DNA of 64,000 bases from Escherichia phage vB_Eco_mar003J3: sequence record NC_048203.1. The stretch is one strand, 5' to 3'. The notes beneath the pieces were generated by a model. It did no database searches. It was not told the origin of the DNA and saw only the letters and a program-made list of their open reading frames with translations. Both the position numbers and the translations under genes were made by a program. Below are positions 1-8,657 of the stretch, piece after piece (position 1 is the stretch's first letter; each line of letters starts with the position of its first letter).

Positions 1-302
1 ACCACCACGTCTTAGAGTTTTGTCGATTATGAACGCTTGAGATCTTCGCCTCATTAAAGTGCTTCAAAAGCATATAATCAGCCCCTAATTGCTCAAGTGG
101 AATGTGATCTCCACTAGAATCATAAACATAAGGCCGTTGATTAGCTCTGTAGTGATATACCTTATTAATCCGGCGTTTAAGCAAAGGACTAGTACAGTAT
201 ATAAAGAAGTTTTTAGGATGCATCAGCATCTCCTTCAAAATTGGTGCACCCCGTTGGTAACGATCCAACCTCTCAAGCTCTTCAGGCAAGCGCTAATCCA
301 TC

Positions 303-866
303 TCAGCTAAAGGTGCAAATATTTTTAGGGTCTCCCCCAAGAGCCTTATATCTCTTTCGGAGTCCATTATCAGATAGTCCAAGTTCTCTTGAAGCTATAG
401 CCCAGGAGAAGTTTCGTACCCAATACTCTATATCTTCTTTTGTAATATCTCTATTCTTAATCCTAGCCGAAGCAGTACACTTTAAGCAGGCTTTTGAGGA
501 TTTATGCTTAGTATCACCACAAATAGGACAAACATCCGTTCTTCTACTAATATTGTTATCAGAACATGTTTTTATTACGTGCTCTTCTTTACTAAGAACT
601 TGTAGGTTGCTTAGTTCAAAATTTGCCGGATTTCTATCTTTATGGTCTACTTCTTTAGAGGAATAAAGATCTTCTAAATCTTTAAATACTCTGCATAATA
701 GTCTAGATATTAAAAGAGTATGCTCAACACCATTTTTACTTAGCTTAACACATGGATAACCTTTATTGTTAAGATAAGTAGCTATTTCTCTGTTAACATG
801 CAATGAGTAAACTTTGCCTGTTTCAGAAATTTTATACATAGGAAATTCAGGTATTGTCTTAAACAT
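303..866 (-). CDS. HNH homing endonuclease
   Basis: 187 aa; HNH-like core VDHKDRNPANFELSNLQVL plus C-terminal Cys cluster CPICG...CLKC. Confidence 0.7.
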   Translation of the reverse strand: MFKTIPEFPMYKISETGKVYSLHVNREIATYLNNKGYPCVKLSKNGVEHTLLISRLLCRVFKDLEDLYSSKEVDHKDRNPANFELSNLQVLSKEEHVIKTCSDNNISRRTDVCPICGDTKHKSSKACLKCTASARIKNRDITKEDIEYWVRNFSWAIASRELGLSDNGLRKRYKALGGDPKNICTFS

Positions 867-880
867 ACTATTTTCTTATC

Positions 881-951
881 TGGCAGGGGTAAAGGTATTC
901 GAAACCTTTTCATGGGTTTTGGAGGCCCACTAGCAACCTATGCGTACCCCC
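881..951 (-). other. degenerate tRNA-like element
   Basis: Acceptor GGGGGTA/TACCCCT, T-arm AAGGT-TTCGAAT-ACCTT and CCA present, but only 71 nt with non-canonical D and anticodon arms. Confidence 0.3.
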
Positions 952-5823: not shown

Positions 5824-6768
5824 TTACTTATTACGCATATCCATAATCATCTGGCCATCATAACCAGTACCTACAACAGTCTGAGGAACGCCACCCTGAT
5901 ATTTTTCAGCGCGTTTCATATCAACTTCCAGCTGTTTCCAGCGAATCATCTCTGGAGTGATGGTACGCTGCAGAGCGGTGTTAGCTTCAGCTTCTTTCTT
6001 AGCTGCATACAGTTTAGCATCTGCGTCACGTTCGTTAGCTACTGCCATATTTTCACGAGCAGAACGATCAGCCTCAGCTTGCTTAACTTTCTGCTGTGCT
6101 TCTTGTTCAACACGAGCTAGTTCAGCTTTTGCAGCGTTAACTTGTTCTTCACGAACTTTGGTGTTTTGTACCTGTTCCATGATTACCGGTGGCAGAGTAA
6201 TATCCTGAAGGAATACTTGCTTAACGGTGTAGCCATAAGGACGCGCATACTCTTCTACTTCTTGCTGAATAGCGGTTTGCAGTTGAGCCTGAATCTTAGC
6301 GTCGAACAGATCTTGTGCTTTTGGTACAGACTTACCAAACTCACGAATCGTAGACAGCATCTTCTCTTCAACGTACTTGTTCAGAGCTTGATCCTGAGTA
6401 CCTGCGTTAACACGGTTCATAGGAGCTTTAGCACCATCAAACTGCAACATAACTGTAATGTCAACTGTAGACTTAAACTTATCCTGGCTAGGAACCTGAA
6501 GTTTATCCAGTTTCATAGAAATATCTTTCGTACTAAAAGTATCAAAAGAGGCGAATGGGTTGACAATATGGAACCCCGGCAATACAGGATTAGGACTAAC
6601 TTTACCCAGGAAAGTCTGAGTTTTAACCGTACCATCCTGAACAACTGTATAGGAATTGAGAGCCAGAATAAGAGCGCCAAGACCAACTACAGCACCAACA
6701 CCCCAACGTTTAATAGCACGAATTACTTTTTGATCGGAAGTCAGTTCTTTAGTGTTTTTAGTAAACAT
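5824..6768 (-). CDS. SPFH/band-7 (prohibitin/HflC-like) membrane protein
   Basis: 314 aa; N-terminal TM helix, band-7-like core, long charged coiled-coil C-terminus. Confidence 0.65.
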   Translation of the reverse strand: MFTKNTKELTSDQKVIRAIKRWGVGAVVGLGALILALNSYTVVQDGTVKTQTFLGKVSPNPVLPGFHIVNPFASFDTFSTKDISMKLDKLQVPSQDKFKSTVDITVMLQFDGAKAPMNRVNAGTQDQALNKYVEEKMLSTIREFGKSVPKAQDLFDAKIQAQLQTAIQQEVEEYARPYGYTVKQVFLQDITLPPVIMEQVQNTKVREEQVNAAKAELARVEQEAQQKVKQAEADRSARENMAVANERDADAKLYAAKKEAEANTALQRTITPEMIRWKQLEVDMKRAEKYQGGVPQTVVGTGYDGQMIMDMRNK

Positions 6769-6779
6769 ATATTTCCTTA

Positions 6780-6980
6780 TTATTTAGAAGAGTTAGCTAC
6801 TACAGTTACTTTAGTTGCAGAAATAAACAGGCTAGCATCCACAGCAAATTCAGGAGCTTTGATATCTCCGTTATGAAATATGACTATACCGGAGACTACT
6901 TCAAATGCTAGCGCTGTAACATCGGTGGTATTTACTTGTGAATGTTCACCTACTACTTTTACTATATATCGTGTTTTCAC
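6780..6980 (-). CDS. hypothetical protein (66 aa)
   Basis: ORF only. Confidence 0.4.
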   Translation of the reverse strand: MKTRYIVKVVGEHSQVNTTDVTALAFEVVSGIVIFHNGDIKAPEFAVDASLFISATKVTVVANSSK

Positions 6981-7006
6981 TTTATTTTCCTAGCAGTTAA
7001 TAAAAT

Positions 7007-7081
7007 TGGCCGAGGTGACAGGATTCGAACCTGCATAAAGGAATTTAGAAGACTCCTGCCTATCCCTTAGACTACACCCCG
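7007..7081 (-). tRNA. tRNA-Arg (anticodon TCT)
   Basis: 75 nt; acceptor CGGGGTG/CACCTCG, D stem GTCT/AGGC, anticodon stem GGAGT/ATTCC with loop CTTCTAA, T-arm GCAGG-TTCGAAT-CCTGT, CCA. Confidence 0.7.
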
Positions 7082-7577
7082 TTTAGGTATTTTTAAGAAC
7101 TCTTATAAAAGCTCTTAAAGATACCGCCAGTAGCGAAGGACGAATCCCTTCATTAAGCGTCTCATTGGTACACACTACTGCCAGACGTATCTTCCAGTTT
7201 ACGTCAAGGTGACTTTGTGGTTATGTTCTCCGTATGTGAAGAACTCGGTTAGGCTTAGGTCATGACTCCCCGCCTACTGCTGCCACTCAACAGGAATTAT
7301 CGCGAATTACCTGTACTATTGGGCACCATTAGTGACATCTCTCATGTCAGCATTTCCCACTTTGTGGATAGCTTGAAAAACTACTCCGATATGGAGAAAG
7401 AACTTCACTATCCTAGAAATACCTTCTAAAGTTCTTCTTTAGCCTGGACATAGTTAAATCGTAATAAAACTATTCAGCAGACTGGTTGGTTAGCCTGGAA
7501 CCAACTACCGCGTGGTTTAGGCAGTGCGTAACTAACCTCGGAAGCTTTTACGTTAAAAGCTTCAGTTATCCAGTTCT

Positions 7578-7649
7578 TACCGACCGTAGGATTCGAACCT
7601 ACATCTTCCACCAGTTACGGCTTGATAATACCAATTATACTAGGACGGC
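7578..7649 (-). tRNA. tRNA-like gene, anticodon arm not resolvable (possible pseudo-tRNA)
   Basis: Acceptor GCCGTCC/GGTCGGT (one mismatch) and T-arm GTAGG-TTCGAAT-CCTAC clear; no 5-bp/7-nt anticodon arm found; no CCA. Confidence 0.4.
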
Positions 7650-7687
7650 AGTGTTACTACATAAGTGATTTCCACACACCACTATTA

Positions 7688-8170
7688 CTAACCAAAGTTA
7701 GTAAATTCTTTATGTAAGGATTCTCTTAATATCTTAGAGGCCTCGAAAGCCTCTTCCGCAGTTTTAAACCCTCTTTTACTGTAATTTTTTCCTTCATGTC
7801 TTACTTGGTATCTCCAGGAAGAGCCTTCCCAACTTACTCCTTTGTACCCAGAAGTATTATTGCATTGTTGGTTTCTATTCGCATTGTTTTGCGATCTAGA
7901 GGCGTCCCTTAGATTATTTTTCCTATTATTTCTAGGATTAGTATCCTTATGATCTACTTCTTCAGGCCTATATCCATAGTACATAATAAACAATAAGACA
8001 TGCAGTTGATAGGTGTCGCCCTGAAATCCCACATCTGGATGTGATTTCTTATTATTGGCACAACACTCTTTCAAACCTTTCTTTGTTTTCCTATATAGTA
8101 TCCCATTATCAGGATCAGCTACAAAATATTTTTCAAGTATTTCTTTAGTAGGGTATTCTTTCCTTTTCAT
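7688..8170 (-). CDS. HNH homing endonuclease
   Basis: 160 aa; EEVDHKDTNPRNNRKNNLR core; SGYKGVSW...WRYQV AP2-like C-terminus. Confidence 0.75.
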   Translation of the reverse strand: MKRKEYPTKEILEKYFVADPDNGILYRKTKKGLKECCANNKKSHPDVGFQGDTYQLHVLLFIMYYGYRPEEVDHKDTNPRNNRKNNLRDASRSQNNANRNQQCNNTSGYKGVSWEGSSWRYQVRHEGKNYSKRGFKTAEEAFEASKILRESLHKEFTNFG

Positions 8171-8176
8171 GAATAT

Positions 8177-8205
8177 ATGATACAGAATTTTGGAACGTTT
8201 AGCAA
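8177..8205 (-). promoter_or_regulatory. sigma70-like promoter (-35 TTGCTA, 17 bp, -10 TATCAT)
   Basis: Minus-strand reading. Confidence 0.5.
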
Positions 8206-8213
8206 ATCAATTT

Positions 8214-8657
8214 TTAATTAAATTCGCCAGCAACCTGAGCAGCAATGCCACCATCGTAACGACCAGGAAACTCTTCCTTAATCGCTTTCATCAGCATACC
8301 CTTTGTAATCCCAGGATTCAGCTTAACTAATTCTGCAAAGTATTTGCGAATCTCAGAATCAGATAGCTGAGGAGGCAAATACTGCTGTAACCATTTGTTC
8401 AGTATATATTCATACTGAGCAGACTGCAAGCTATAATTATCAAGATCTTGACTGTGAAGTTTAGATTTCGTCTGATTAATGCTTTTCAGTTGAGCTTTTA
8501 GATAAGATATAAACTGTTCAGAAGTAATGAAGTCTTTATCAACACGCTGAAGATCTCCGATTATGGTCTGGTAGCTTTTAGCTACTTCTTTATCAGAACC
8601 ATCAAACTTGGATTCCTGCAAAGCCCTACGCAAAACATCTAGAATATTCTCTTCCAT
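8214..8657 (-). CDS. GatB/YqeY-domain protein
   Basis: 147 aa; C-terminal GITKGMLMKAIKEEFPGRYDG resembles the YqeY signature as recalled. Confidence 0.6.
   Translation of the reverse strand: MEENILDVLRRALQESKFDGSDKEVAKSYQTIIGDLQRVDKDFITSEQFISYLKAQLKSINQTKSKLHSQDLDNYSLQSAQYEYILNKWLQQYLPPQLSDSEIRKYFAELVKLNPGITKGMLMKAIKEEFPGRYDGGIAAQVAGEFN

What the first reader, a model, noticed from the sequence alone, without database searches (positions are those of the whole stretch)
7082..7660. Non-coding stretch between tRNA-Arg and a tRNA-like gene with unreadable anticodon arm
About 500 bp without a credible ORF separates tRNA-Arg (7007-7081) from a tRNA-like element (7578-7649) that has a clean acceptor stem and T-arm but no canonical anticodon arm, so it may be a pseudo-tRNA or a non-tRNA RNA. 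The spacer also holds a 23-nt near-perfect hairpin GAAGCTTTTACGTTAAAAGCTTC at about 7540-7562. A similar degenerate tRNA-like element sits at 881-951. The region may encode small structured RNAs.
Basis: seen in the sequence. Interest (0 to 1): 0.4.

Follow-up and report, generated by a model that had tools for sequence, protein, structure and literature searches.

The report
Large structured RNA of T5-like phages
The "empty" 500 bases and the odd tRNA-like element are parts of one ~600-base structured non-coding RNA gene, the counterpart of the never-characterised "RNAX" of phage T5; it is conserved across T5-like phages and its function is unknown.

Summary
All features lie on the minus strand of a T5-like Salmonella phage: tRNA-Arg (7081-7007), a 496-nt stretch with no conserved ORF, and a tRNA-like element (7649-7578) with an intact acceptor stem, D arm and T arm, no usable anticodon loop and no encoded CCA.

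They are not a dead tRNA plus junk. Leader, tRNA-like element and "spacer" (7681-7082) form one RNA gene, homologous to the stretch annotated in T5 and DT571/2 as "rnaX, stable RNA with unknown functions". It occurs in more than 500 phage records.

It is built of near-invariant islands and variable hairpins, with many compensatory base changes. G·U outnumbers A·C 108 to 2, which places the structure on minus-strand RNA.

A newly recognised leader-trailer helix clamps the tRNA-like domain (99% paired, 5 of 8 pairs compensatory). That domain is a canonical-looking tRNA-Pro in Erwinia phage KEY and a plain hairpin in three other phages.

No Rfam family other than tRNA matches, and no paper on RNAX was found. 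The function is unknown. In T5 the region lies inside the viable st0 deletion, so it is probably accessory. The closest analogues are the large phage RNAs GOLLD and ROOL, which also sit near tRNA arrays.

The parts
7082..7681 (-). Whole RNAX-homologous RNA gene: leader, tRNA-like domain and the 496-nt 'spacer'
   Evidence: Homologous to the misc_RNA 'rnaX' of T5 and DT571/2. Model R1 matches 7535-7681 at 168 bits. Alignment of 17 homologues.
8177..8205 (-). Sigma-70-like promoter TTGCTA-17-TATCAT, counterpart of T5 promoter P16-17 (context)
   Evidence: Consensus scan. Same TTGCTA hexamer and position as the promoter annotated in T5. Function not tested.
7688..8170 (-). HNH_3 homing-endonuclease-like ORF inserted between the promoter and the RNAX leader (context, not part of the RNA)
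   Evidence: ORF list. Pfam HNH_3, E 1.2e-11. Absent at this position in T5.
7650..7681 (-). Conserved 5' leader (UGGUGUGUGGAAAUCACUUAUGUAGUAACACU)
   Evidence: Near-invariant from Salmonella, E. coli and Klebsiella phages to Pectobacterium and Proteus phages.
7656..7664 (-). P1 helix, 5' strand (UUAUGUAGU)
   Evidence: Pairs with 7566-7574. 99% of cells paired, 5 of 8 pairs with compensatory changes, and a conserved central G·G mismatch.
7578..7649 (-). tRNA-like domain: acceptor stem, D arm with GG and T arm intact; anticodon position holds a 3-4 bp stem and the 6-nt loop GUAACU; no encoded CCA
   Evidence: Rfam tRNA 35.5 bits, no ARAGORN call. Compensatory changes in the T, acceptor and D stems. 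Variants in relatives.
7566..7574 (-). P1 helix, 3' strand (ACUGGAUAA)
7541..7563 (-).
   Evidence: Sequence. 3-4 of 7 pairs have compensatory changes.
7511..7537 (-). Hairpin H2 and the conserved island CUAAACCACG
   Evidence: The island is conserved in all lineages. The helix register is ambiguous: the structure comes only from minimum-free-energy (MFE) folding and inspection by eye.
7362..7510 (-). Variable middle region: hairpins that occur as alternative cassettes in different phages
   Evidence: Segment comparison. MFE fold only. Not tested for covariation.
7215..7361 (-). Core multi-helix domain closed by GUGG/CCAC, holding helices Pc1-Pc4
   Evidence: Alignment A2 and RNAalifold. 97.6% of cells paired and 7 of 33 pairs compensatory, against 0-1 in the slid controls. 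Model R2 finds it in Erwinia and Klebsiella phages.
7260..7267 (-). Invariant 8-nt loop AGUCAUGA of helix Pc3; contains the palindrome UCAUGA
   Evidence: Invariant in every lineage that has the core. Its role is inferred only.
7082..7214 (-). 3' module: small hairpin GUCA-CCU-UGAC, stem GAUA/UAUC enclosing a variable branched insert, and a terminal hairpin
   Evidence: Alignment A1. 99.5% of cells paired and 2 pairs compensatory. 92% identical to a Klebsiella phage over 128 nt.
7092..7119 (-). Terminal 12-bp hairpin UUUAAGAGCUUU-UAUA-AGAGUUCUUAAA, 10 nt before tRNA-Arg
   Evidence: 100% paired in 20 sequences, with one compensatory and three one-sided changes.
7007..7081 (-). tRNA-Arg(UCU) with encoded CCA, directly abutting the RNAX 3' end
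   Evidence: ARAGORN and Rfam.

Best explanation
**What it is.** Window 7681-7082 (minus strand) is a single gene for a structured non-coding RNA of about 600 nt. It is the orthologue of the 'rnaX' feature annotated in T5.

**Shown here: its architecture.**
- A conserved leader pairs with the sequence just after the tRNA-like element (helix P1).
- The tRNA-like domain therefore sits on top of P1, joined through an invariant internal loop, AACACU on one side and AAGA on the other.
- Then come hairpin H1, a variable middle region and a multi-helix core. One hairpin of the core displays the invariant loop AGUCAUGA.
- A 3' module ends in a 12-bp hairpin 10 nt before tRNA-Arg.

**Inferred: how it is made.**
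- It is transcribed early from the P16-17-like promoter at 8205-8177, here together with the inserted HNH gene.
- RNase P cleavage at the 5' end of tRNA-Arg sets its 3' end, as at the MALAT1-mascRNA junction.
- The terminal hairpin protects that end from exonucleases.

**Inferred: the tRNA-like domain.** It descends from a real embedded tRNA, which is still a canonical-looking tRNA-Pro in Erwinia phage KEY. It has kept only its acceptor, T-loop and D-loop 'elbow'. That fits a structural or protein- or RNase P-recognition handle, not a decoding role.

**Inferred, low confidence (about 0.3): function.** The mature RNA is an accessory scaffold or decoy used in phage-host conflict or in phage tRNA biology. 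It may act as a ribonucleoprotein or an RNA oligomer, in the manner proposed for GOLLD and ROOL. It is not essential for lytic growth in laboratory E. coli.
For: **Homology and annotation**
- The spacer alone matches 519 phage records, all T5-like.
- T5 (AY734508) and DT571/2 annotate the stretch from promoter P16-17 to tRNA-Arg as misc_RNA rnaX, 'stable RNA with unknown functions'.

**Conservation pattern**
- Near-invariant islands are separated by hairpins that differ in sequence but not in position. This holds across Markadamsvirinae, Sugarlandvirus, Mccorquodalevirinae and Novosibvirus.
- The neighbouring YqeY-like protein is only 30-37% identical between these groups.

**Secondary structure**
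- 5' domain: 17 of 34 pairs have changes on both sides in 13 sequences, and 22 of 34 in 19 sequences. The slid controls give 1-9. P1 is 99% paired.
- Core: 7 of 33 pairs are compensatory and 97.6% of cells are paired.
- 3' module: 99.5% of cells are paired.
- The minus-strand fold has z = -3.5.
- Over the tested helices there are 108 G·U cells and 2 A·C cells. This places the structure on minus-strand RNA.

**Non-coding**
- No ORF is conserved in position or strand.

**The tRNA-like element is not a tRNA**
- ARAGORN does not call it, the anticodon region fails to align to the Rfam model, and there is no CCA. The true tRNAs inspected here (Arg, Glu, Tyr, Trp) encode CCA.
- The anticodon arm differs in every lineage, while the elbow and acceptor stem are kept.
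- It is a tRNA-Pro(UGG) in phage KEY.
- It is a plain hairpin in L015, L038 and Proteus phage PL1, with P1 retained.

**Dispensability**
- The T5 record marks the ends of the AY734508 fragment as the st0 deletion junction, so rnaX lies inside a viable deletion.
Against: - No expression or processing data were available here. The wording 'stable RNA' rests on a GenBank note, and I could find no paper behind it.
- The middle third (7362-7510) has only an MFE model.
- Two pairings of GUAUC in the 3' module are mutually exclusive and unresolved.
- The aligned sequences are related and mosaic, so compensatory 'cells' overcount independent events.
- Dispensability in the laboratory, and replacement of the tRNA-like domain by hairpins, show that neither the RNA nor its tRNA mimicry is strictly required.
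- In several relatives ORFs lie between RNAX and tRNA-Arg. RNase P at tRNA-Arg therefore cannot be the universal 3'-end mechanism.
- The functional proposal has no direct support.
Confidence: 0.8

Rival explanations
1. A decaying pseudo-tRNA followed by non-functional transcribed spacer before tRNA-Arg.
For: ARAGORN does not call the element. The anticodon arm is aberrant. The region can be deleted in T5 st0.
Against: - The leader, the elbow and several islands are near-invariant across subfamilies whose neighbouring protein is 30-37% identical.
- Compensatory changes are abundant.
- A pseudogene would not keep a perfect T arm, the GG in the D loop and a covarying clamp helix.
Confidence: 0.03
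2. The locus yields several separate small stable RNAs. RNase P and RNase E would release the tRNA-like piece and one or more hairpin-rich fragments, and these, not one long RNA, would be the functional units.
For: - The tRNA-like domain keeps everything RNase P recognises, with 6 unpaired leader nucleotides before G1.
- tRNA clusters are normally processed into pieces.
- Modules recombine independently as cassettes.
Against: - The P1 helix ties the leader to the trailer across the tRNA-like domain.
- The core is closed by a long-range helix.
- Three phages replace the tRNA-like domain with a hairpin that is not expected to be an RNase P substrate, yet keep the rest.
- The T5 annotators drew one RNA.
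Confidence: 0.12
3. A cis-acting 5' leader of the tRNA-Arg precursor (or 3' UTR of the upstream gene) that controls processing, stability or transcription read-through, with no function in trans.
For: It abuts tRNA-Arg directly in this window and in T5. It lies in one transcription unit with upstream genes.
Against: - In many Epseptimaviruses a 510-nt ORF separates it from tRNA-Arg. In Klebsiella and Erwinia phages two CDSs do so. The RNA is conserved all the same.
- About 600 nt and roughly 20 helices, with invariant loops, is far more than known leaders need.
Confidence: 0.04
4. The region encodes one or more small proteins missed by annotation.
For: Automatic pipelines annotate 'hypothetical proteins' inside the homologous stretch in some records.
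Against: - The ORFs differ in strand, frame and position between homologues, and some homologues have nothing above 42 aa.
- Insertions and deletions are not in multiples of three.
- The substitution pattern is pairwise compensatory.
Confidence: 0.01
5. A DNA-level element, such as a homing-endonuclease target, a recombination hotspot or a replication signal, rather than an RNA.
For: Homing-endonuclease-type ORFs are inserted at both ends. Cassette mosaicism is seen.
Against: The 108 G·U against 2 A·C cells in the helices show selection on one RNA strand. The viable st0 deletion argues against an essential origin. Endonuclease insertion at conserved sequence is a consequence of that conservation, not an explanation of it.
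Confidence: 0.02

Closest known systems
Bacteriophage T5 'RNAX' (gene rnaX; misc_RNA in GenBank AY734508 and in phage DT571/2 NC_047749, 'stable RNA with unknown functions')
   Same: Direct homologue: 86-88% identity over the alignable parts. Same position between the YqeY-like gene with promoter P16-17 and tRNA-Arg, same strand, and same inclusion of the tRNA-like element.
   Different: - In this window an HNH gene is inserted between promoter and leader.
- The variable hairpin of the 3' module is a different cassette from T5's, and T5 has an extra duplicated insert of about 90 nt.
- The annotation gives no structure or function, and I found no paper.
GOLLD and ROOL large 'ornate' RNAs of phages and prophages (Rfam; cryo-EM nanocages, PMC12286853)
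   Same: - A phage-encoded non-coding RNA of 500-900 nt, located in or next to tRNA arrays.
- Many helices with invariant junctions and loops, and a conserved part alongside a variable part.
- GOLLD sometimes carries tRNAs in its linker, as RNAX carries an embedded tRNA or tRNA-like domain.
- Non-essential, function unknown.
   Different: - No match to either covariance model at E up to 10 in the window locus or E up to 1 in five further homologues.
- The hosts are Enterobacterales phages of the family Demerecviridae, not Firmicutes, Actinobacteria or rumen phages.
- Oligomerisation was not tested.
Phage T4 stable RNAs C and D (species 1 and 2) in the T4 tRNA cluster (from my own knowledge, not checked here)
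   Same: Non-tRNA stable RNAs encoded inside a lytic coliphage tRNA cluster, co-transcribed and processed with the tRNAs, dispensable, function unknown.
   Different: The T4 RNAs are about 120-140 nt. RNAX is four to six times larger. No sequence comparison was made here.
MALAT1/MEN-beta with mascRNA: 3'-end formation by RNase P at a downstream tRNA-like structure (from my own knowledge)
   Same: A long structured RNA abuts a tRNA or tRNA-like element. RNase P cleavage would create its 3' end, and a stable terminal structure would protect it.
   Different: That system is eukaryotic and nuclear, and its protecting element is a triple helix rather than a hairpin. It is an analogy for a mechanism, not homology. 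It is untested here and cannot apply to relatives that have ORFs between RNAX and tRNA-Arg.
tRNA-like domains inside larger RNAs: tmRNA and bacterial Y-RNA-like YrlA (from my own knowledge)
   Same: An elbow formed by the T loop and D loop, plus an acceptor-like stem, is embedded in a larger non-coding RNA and used for recognition by tRNA-binding factors.
   Different: - The topology differs. Here the acceptor stem connects to the rest of the RNA through P1. In tmRNA and YrlA the connection is through the anticodon-stem position.
- ARAGORN finds no tmRNA, and Rfam finds no tmRNA or Y-RNA hit.

Membership tests
Canonical tRNA (Rfam RF00005) | Score at or above the family gathering threshold | tested here: met
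   35.5 bits against 29
Canonical tRNA (Rfam RF00005) | 7-bp acceptor stem, D arm with G18G19, T arm with the GUUCRANYC loop | tested here: met
   Rfam alignment. The acceptor stem has G1·U72 and a U5·U68 mismatch. The T stem is 100% paired, with compensatory changes.
Canonical tRNA (Rfam RF00005) | 5-bp anticodon stem with a 7-nt loop, U33 and a purine at 37 | tested here: not met
   The 18 nt at this position do not align to the model. The best pairing is 3-4 bp with the 6-nt loop GUAACU. ARAGORN makes no call. The arm differs in every lineage.
Canonical tRNA (Rfam RF00005) | 3' CCA end, which is genome-encoded in the true tRNAs inspected in this phage | tested here: not met
   The element is followed by AAGAAC. 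tRNA-Arg, Glu, Tyr and Trp all carry an encoded CCA.
T5 RNAX (rnaX misc_RNA) | Sequence homology to the annotated T5 / DT571/2 rnaX | tested here: met
   blastn 86-88% identity. Coverage is 100% against DT571/2 and 78% against the T5 fragment.
T5 RNAX (rnaX misc_RNA) | Position between the YqeY-like gene with promoter P16-17 and tRNA-Arg, on the same strand | tested here: met
T5 RNAX (rnaX misc_RNA) | Accumulates as a stable RNA in infected cells | not testable with these tools
   Only the GenBank note says so. No paper was found.
GOLLD / ROOL | Match to the Rfam covariance model | tested here: not met
   No hit at E up to 10 in window 6700-8000, nor at E up to 1 in five diverse homologues.
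GOLLD / ROOL | Large phage-encoded non-coding RNA adjacent to tRNA arrays | tested here: met
   description of the families in PMC12286853
GOLLD / ROOL | Homo-oligomeric RNA-only assembly | not testable with these tools
   The only hint is an invariant loop that contains a palindrome.
tmRNA | tRNA-like domain formed by the two ends of the RNA, plus a tag reading frame | tested here: not met
   ARAGORN finds no tmRNA and there is no Rfam tmRNA hit. The tRNA-like element is contiguous.
Group I / group II intron or other known ribozyme | Match to the Rfam models | tested here: not met

The most novel reading that the evidence does not exclude
RNAX may be a previously unclassified class of large 'ornate' phage RNA, the Enterobacterales-phage counterpart of GOLLD and ROOL. 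On this reading:

- It has an embedded tRNA-derived handle.
- It self-associates through the invariant palindrome-containing loop AGUCAUGA, or forms a ribonucleoprotein with the co-located YqeY-like protein, whose family binds tRNA.
- It acts in trans during infection, for example by sequestering or decoying a host tRNA-directed or ribosome-directed factor or defence nuclease.

Because it sits in T5, and is missing from the common laboratory strain T5st0, its function would be directly testable in E. coli.
Probability: 0.25. Interest if true: 0.8.

Novelty: new member of a known kind. Interest (0 to 1): 0.55.

Why it matters
- **A tractable model.** Large, highly structured non-coding RNAs of phages (GOLLD, ROOL) have spectacular structures and no known function, and none sits in an easy genetic system. 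RNAX is a comparable RNA in the classical coliphage T5 and in hundreds of therapeutic-candidate Salmonella, E. coli and Klebsiella phages.
- **A ready-made comparison.** It is absent from Rfam. According to the T5 record it is deleted in the laboratory strain T5st0. Comparing wild-type T5 with st0 or with clean deletions is therefore feasible.
- **Annotation clean-up.** The embedded element is currently annotated as tRNA-Sec, tRNA-Pro, tRNA-Ser, tRNA-OTHER, a pseudogene or nothing. Small 'hypothetical proteins' are called inside the RNA. A family model would correct these records.
- **An evolutionary series.** The same slot holds a real tRNA, a tRNA-like domain or a plain hairpin in different phages. 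This shows how a tRNA can be absorbed into a larger RNA.

Tried and rejected
- **Rfam.** A gathering-threshold scan of the window and permissive scans of the locus and of five diverse homologues gave nothing but tRNA. The best other hit, JA02 at 28 bits against a gathering score of 49, merely reuses the T arm and hairpin H1.
- **tmRNA.** ARAGORN finds none.
- **Coding potential.** No ORF is conserved.
- **Literature.** 'RNAX' with T5 or phage, T5 stable RNA with Ksenzenko, T5-like with tRNA-like or ncRNA, and T5 RNA-seq were all searched. No paper describes this RNA. The Schlafen and retron Eco2 papers that surfaced are not about it.
- **Searches for more distant relatives.**
  - Pattern scans of IMG/VR returned only the known isolate genomes.
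  - The metagenome scan gave 12 loci. Nine are true T5-like variants and three are chance matches.
  - The genome scan gave two loci. They look like chance matches, and only model R2 was run on them, without a hit.
  - The search for related loci with the endolysin reached only close relatives.
  - Aeromonas phage 2L372X, fetched through the endolysin, is not a Demerecviridae member and has no RNAX.
- **Limits of the core model R2.** It is built from close relatives and is too narrow. It misses the divergent cores of DU_PP_V and Proteus PL1.
- **Pairings not kept.**
  - The long-range MFE pairing CUGGAU/GUCCAG is not conserved in other types and was dropped.
  - The register of the small leader hairpin (GUG/CAC) is ambiguous between types and is not claimed.
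  - RNAalifold's 16-bp version of the terminal hairpin competes with the GAUA/UAUC stem. I keep 12 bp as certain.
- **YqeY link.** The family assignment holds. Presence of the gene does not, however, track presence of the tRNA-like domain. Klebsiella phages have the domain without an adjacent YqeY gene. Phages 1-29 and PL1 have the YqeY gene without the domain. This is only a lead.
Full report
**1.

The region is 98.5% identical to Salmonella phage 2-3. It belongs to the T5-like phages (Demerecviridae, Epseptimavirus).

Everything of interest is on the minus strand. Read in the RNA sense, the order is:

- a sigma-70-like promoter TTGCTA-17-TATCAT (8205-8177);
- an HNH_3 endonuclease ORF (8170-7688);
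- a 32-nt leader (7681-7650);
- the tRNA-like element (7649-7578);
- 496 nt without a credible ORF (7577-7082);
- tRNA-Arg(UCU) with an encoded CCA (7081-7007).

ARAGORN finds tRNA-Arg but not the tRNA-like element. Rfam's tRNA model scores the element at 35.5 bits against a threshold of 29. Its acceptor, D and T arms align, and 18 nt in the anticodon position do not.

One detail fails. The "similar" element at 881-951 is the orthologue of T5's annotated tRNA-Trp, 95.7% identical. It has a readable CCA anticodon and an encoded CCA end. Likewise 242-316 is the tRNA-Phe orthologue.

**2. The stretch is a known but uncharacterised annotated RNA**

The 496-nt spacer alone matches 519 phage records, all T5-like.

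Two records annotate the homologous stretch as misc_RNA "rnaX: RNAX". These are the T5 fragment AY734508 and phage DT571/2. The feature runs from promoter P16-17 to tRNA-Arg and includes the tRNA-like element.

Most other records leave the gap empty or fill it with short hypothetical proteins. They call the tRNA-like element tRNA-Sec, tRNA-OTHER, tRNA-Pro, a pseudogene, or nothing.

I found no paper in the held library that describes RNAX.

The same T5 record marks the ends of that 8.2-kb fragment as the recombination site of the st0 deletion mutant. In T5, rnaX therefore lies inside a deletion that leaves the phage viable.

**3. It is not coding**

The longest ORFs in the window's copy are 55-60 aa on the plus strand and 45 aa on the minus strand.

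Across 14 diverse homologues the longest ORFs change strand, frame and position. Several homologues have nothing longer than 42 aa. Length differences between homologues come from whole hairpins gained, lost or swapped, not from in-frame changes.

**4. It is a conserved, structured RNA on the minus strand**

An alignment of 17 homologues shows near-invariant islands separated by variable hairpins. The islands are:

- the leader;
- the elbow of the tRNA-like element;
- AAGAGCUGGAUAACUG;
- GCUAAACCACG;
- AGUGGGAAA;
- GGAGUCAUGACC;
- AUAACCAC;
- AGUCACCUUGACUUAAACUGGAAGAUA;
- GGUAUCUUUAAGAGC…GUUCUUAAAAAUAC.

The variable hairpins occur as two to four alternative cassettes, reshuffled among phages.

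The islands persist from Salmonella and E. coli phages to four more distant groups:

- Klebsiella Sugarlandvirus;
- Pectobacterium phage DU_PP_V;
- Erwinia phage KEY;
- Proteus phage PL1, for the 5' domain only.

The adjacent YqeY-like protein is only 30-37% identical between these groups. The 3' module of this Salmonella phage is 92% identical over 128 nt to that of a Klebsiella phage.

| Region tested | Sequences | Cells paired | Pairs changed on both sides | Slid controls |
|---|---|---|---|---|
| Core domain, 7361-7215 | 14 | 97.6% | 7 of 33 | 0-1 |
| 5' domain | 13 | 88.6% | 17 of 34 | 1-5 |
| 5' domain, aligned to covariance model R1 | 19 | 88.9% | 22 of 34 | 1-9 |
| 3' module | 20 | 99.5% | 2 of 20 (mostly invariant) | 0 |

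No shuffle of the core alignment reaches the observed covariation score.

The spacer folds better than its shuffles: z = -3.5 on the minus strand and -2.7 on the plus strand.

Over all tested helices there are 108 G·U cells and only 2 A·C cells. This is the signature of selection on minus-strand RNA. It excludes plus-strand RNA and DNA cruciforms.

*Caveat:* the sequences are related and mosaic, so the cell counts overstate the number of independent events.

**5. Anatomy, including a feature not in the annotation**

*The P1 clamp.* The leader segment UUAUGUAGU (7664-7656) pairs with ACUGGAUAA (7574-7566), which lies just after the tRNA-like element.

- This helix is 99% paired, and 5 of its 8 pairs show compensatory changes.
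- Examples are AGU/ACU, AAC/GUU, AGC/GCU, AAU/AUU and GAU/AUC, and UUG/CAA in the Proteus phage.
- It carries an invariant central G·G mismatch.

*The tRNA-like domain.* Its acceptor stem stacks on P1 through an invariant internal loop, AACACU on one side and AAGA on the other.

That region has only an MFE model.

*Core.* The core is closed by GUGG/CCAC and holds four helices.

- One of them, UAGGC·GGG/CCU··GCCUA, presents the invariant 8-nt loop AGUCAUGA.
- In Klebsiella phages the outer part of that helix is GUGAC/GUCAC, which is fully compensatory.

*3' module.* It ends in a 12-bp hairpin 10 nt before tRNA-Arg.

**6. What the tRNA-like element is**

It keeps a 7-bp acceptor stem, a D arm with GG, and a perfect T arm. 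The T stem covaries: GUAGG/CCUAC, GCAGG/CCUGC and GUGGG/CCCAC.

The anticodon position differs from lineage to lineage:

| Lineage | What occupies the anticodon position |
|---|---|
| This window, T5 | 3-4 bp stem with the 6-nt loop GUAACU |
| Several Epseptimaviruses | UUCACU/UUCACC loop; ARAGORN calls it "tRNA-SeC(UCA)" |
| Klebsiella phages | long stem capped by a GCUA tetraloop |
| DU_PP_V | CCUAGGG |

It has no encoded CCA, unlike the true tRNAs inspected in this phage (Arg, Glu, Tyr, Trp).

In Erwinia phage KEY the same slot holds a canonical-looking tRNA-Pro(UGG), with a 5-bp stem, a 7-nt loop, U33 and G37. The leader, P1 and trailer around it are the same.

In Salmonella phage 1-29 (L015), in L038 and in Proteus phage PL1 the slot holds a plain hairpin, and P1 and the internal loop are retained.

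The simplest reading is an inference. A real tRNA embedded in the RNA lost its decoding function but kept its elbow and acceptor as a structural or recognition module. In some lineages it was replaced altogether.

**7. How it probably works**

*Shown:* a conserved multi-domain minus-strand RNA; its architecture; the absence of coding capacity; its location inside a deletable region of T5.

*Inferred:*

- It is transcribed from the P16-17-like promoter, here through the inserted HNH gene.
- RNase P cleavage at tRNA-Arg forms the 3' end, and the terminal hairpin protects it. This resembles the MALAT1-mascRNA mechanism.
- That cannot be universal, because relatives have ORFs between RNAX and tRNA-Arg.
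- The tRNA-like elbow serves as a handle for RNase P or another tRNA-binding factor.

The upstream neighbour is a full-length YqeY-family protein. A profile of it matches PDB 1ng6 at E 1.8e-7. It is conserved in that position in three subfamilies. YqeY-type domains help GatB and GlnRS bind the tRNA D-loop region. That makes it a candidate partner. Its presence does not track the tRNA-like domain, so this is only a lead.

My best guess for function, with confidence about 0.3, is an accessory trans-acting scaffold or decoy. It would act in phage-host conflict or in phage tRNA biology.

The invariant loop AGUCAUGA contains the palindrome UCAUGA. It could mediate kissing dimerisation, or a pseudoknot with the invariant UGAC of the 3' module. 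Because it never varies, neither idea can be tested by covariation.

**8. Comparison with known families**

- *T5 RNAX.* The element is a member of this family by homology and synteny.
- *Working tRNA.* It is not one: the anticodon arm and CCA tests fail.
- *Other Rfam families.* It matches no family in Rfam 15 other than tRNA, in six diverse homologues. There is no tmRNA.
- *GOLLD and ROOL.* It resembles these in size, phage origin, adjacency to tRNA arrays, dispensability, a split into conserved and variable parts, and embedded tRNAs. It fails their covariance models. The resemblance is therefore analogy, not membership.

**9. Verdict**

The finding is real, and more interesting than a pseudo-tRNA. 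It is the unannotated orthologue of a database-annotated RNA that has never been characterised.

New here:

- the family-wide conservation;
- the covariation-supported architecture;
- the P1 clamp;
- the series from tRNA to tRNA-like domain to hairpin;
- the absence of the RNA from Rfam.

Function remains unknown. I score novelty as a new member of a known kind and interest as moderate to high.

Noticed in passing
window 7688-8170 (minus); L003 1891-2400; L008, L009, L011 and L015 at the equivalent position: Both ends of RNAX are insertion hot spots. In this window an HNH_3 ORF sits between the promoter and the leader; T5 has none there. In several Epseptimaviruses a 510-nt ORF with no Pfam hit sits between the terminal hairpin and tRNA-Arg. 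Klebsiella and Erwinia phages have two small CDSs there.
   Followed up: partly
window 881-951 and 242-316 (minus): These are orthologues of T5 tRNA-Trp(CCA) and tRNA-Phe(GAA). tRNA-Trp has a reduced D arm, and both ARAGORN and the Rfam gathering scan miss it. tRNA-Phe has an odd T loop (GGUUGGAUCGUUACCAACG), scores only 33.4 bits and is missed by ARAGORN. Standard tRNA finders under-call tRNAs in this phage group. An unchecked ORF (about 864-330, minus) lies between the two.
   Followed up: partly
L094 (Proteus phage vB_PMC-PL1) 7730-8442: Only the leader, P1 and H1 part of RNAX is recognisable (8239-8347), about 95 nt before tRNA-Arg. About 40 nt upstream of the leader lies UAGGCA…AGGG-AUAAGUCAUGACA-CCCU-GCCUA, which looks like the Pc3 helix and invariant loop of the T5-type core. 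A T-arm-like ACGGUUCGAUUCCGU lies at about 7980. The domain order may be permuted.
   Followed up: partly
window 7082-7214 compared with L014 (Klebsiella phage Roth39) and L004 (T5): RNAX is mosaic. The variable hairpin of this Salmonella phage's 3' module is the cassette found in a Klebsiella Sugarlandvirus (92% over 128 nt). T5 carries a different, non-alignable cassette at the same place. Recombination appears to occur at the invariant islands.
   Followed up: partly
window 8214-8657 (minus) and its orthologues in L017, L093 and L094: A full-length YqeY-family protein (a family whose domains bind tRNA) is the conserved upstream neighbour of RNAX in three Demerecviridae lineages. It is annotated variously as 'tRNA amidotransferase', 'recombination related endonuclease' or hypothetical protein.
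   Followed up: partly
L002, L008, L009, L011 (tRNA-like slot); L012-L016; L093 6501-6575: The embedded element is annotated inconsistently in GenBank: tRNA-Sec, tRNA-OTHER, tRNA-Pro, tRNA-Ser, pseudo-tRNA, or nothing. The 'tRNA-SeC(UCA)' calls in Epseptimaviruses are this RNAX domain and are unlikely to be suppressor tRNAs.
   Followed up: yes
window 7656-7664 / 7566-7574 and 7650-7655 / 7575-7578: P1 has an invariant central G·G mismatch. An invariant asymmetric internal loop (AACACU / AAGA) lies between P1 and the acceptor stem. Both are kept even where the tRNA-like domain is replaced by a hairpin, so together they look like a specific recognition site.
   Followed up: no
L017 1684-1827, L012 857-1007, L093 7742-7876: Model R1 gives weak full-length hits (36-46 bits) around the tRNA-Arg genes of distant relatives. 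In the one alignment inspected (L093) the score comes from the tRNA part and the P1 columns are mismatched. It probably does not mark a second clamp structure.
   Followed up: partly
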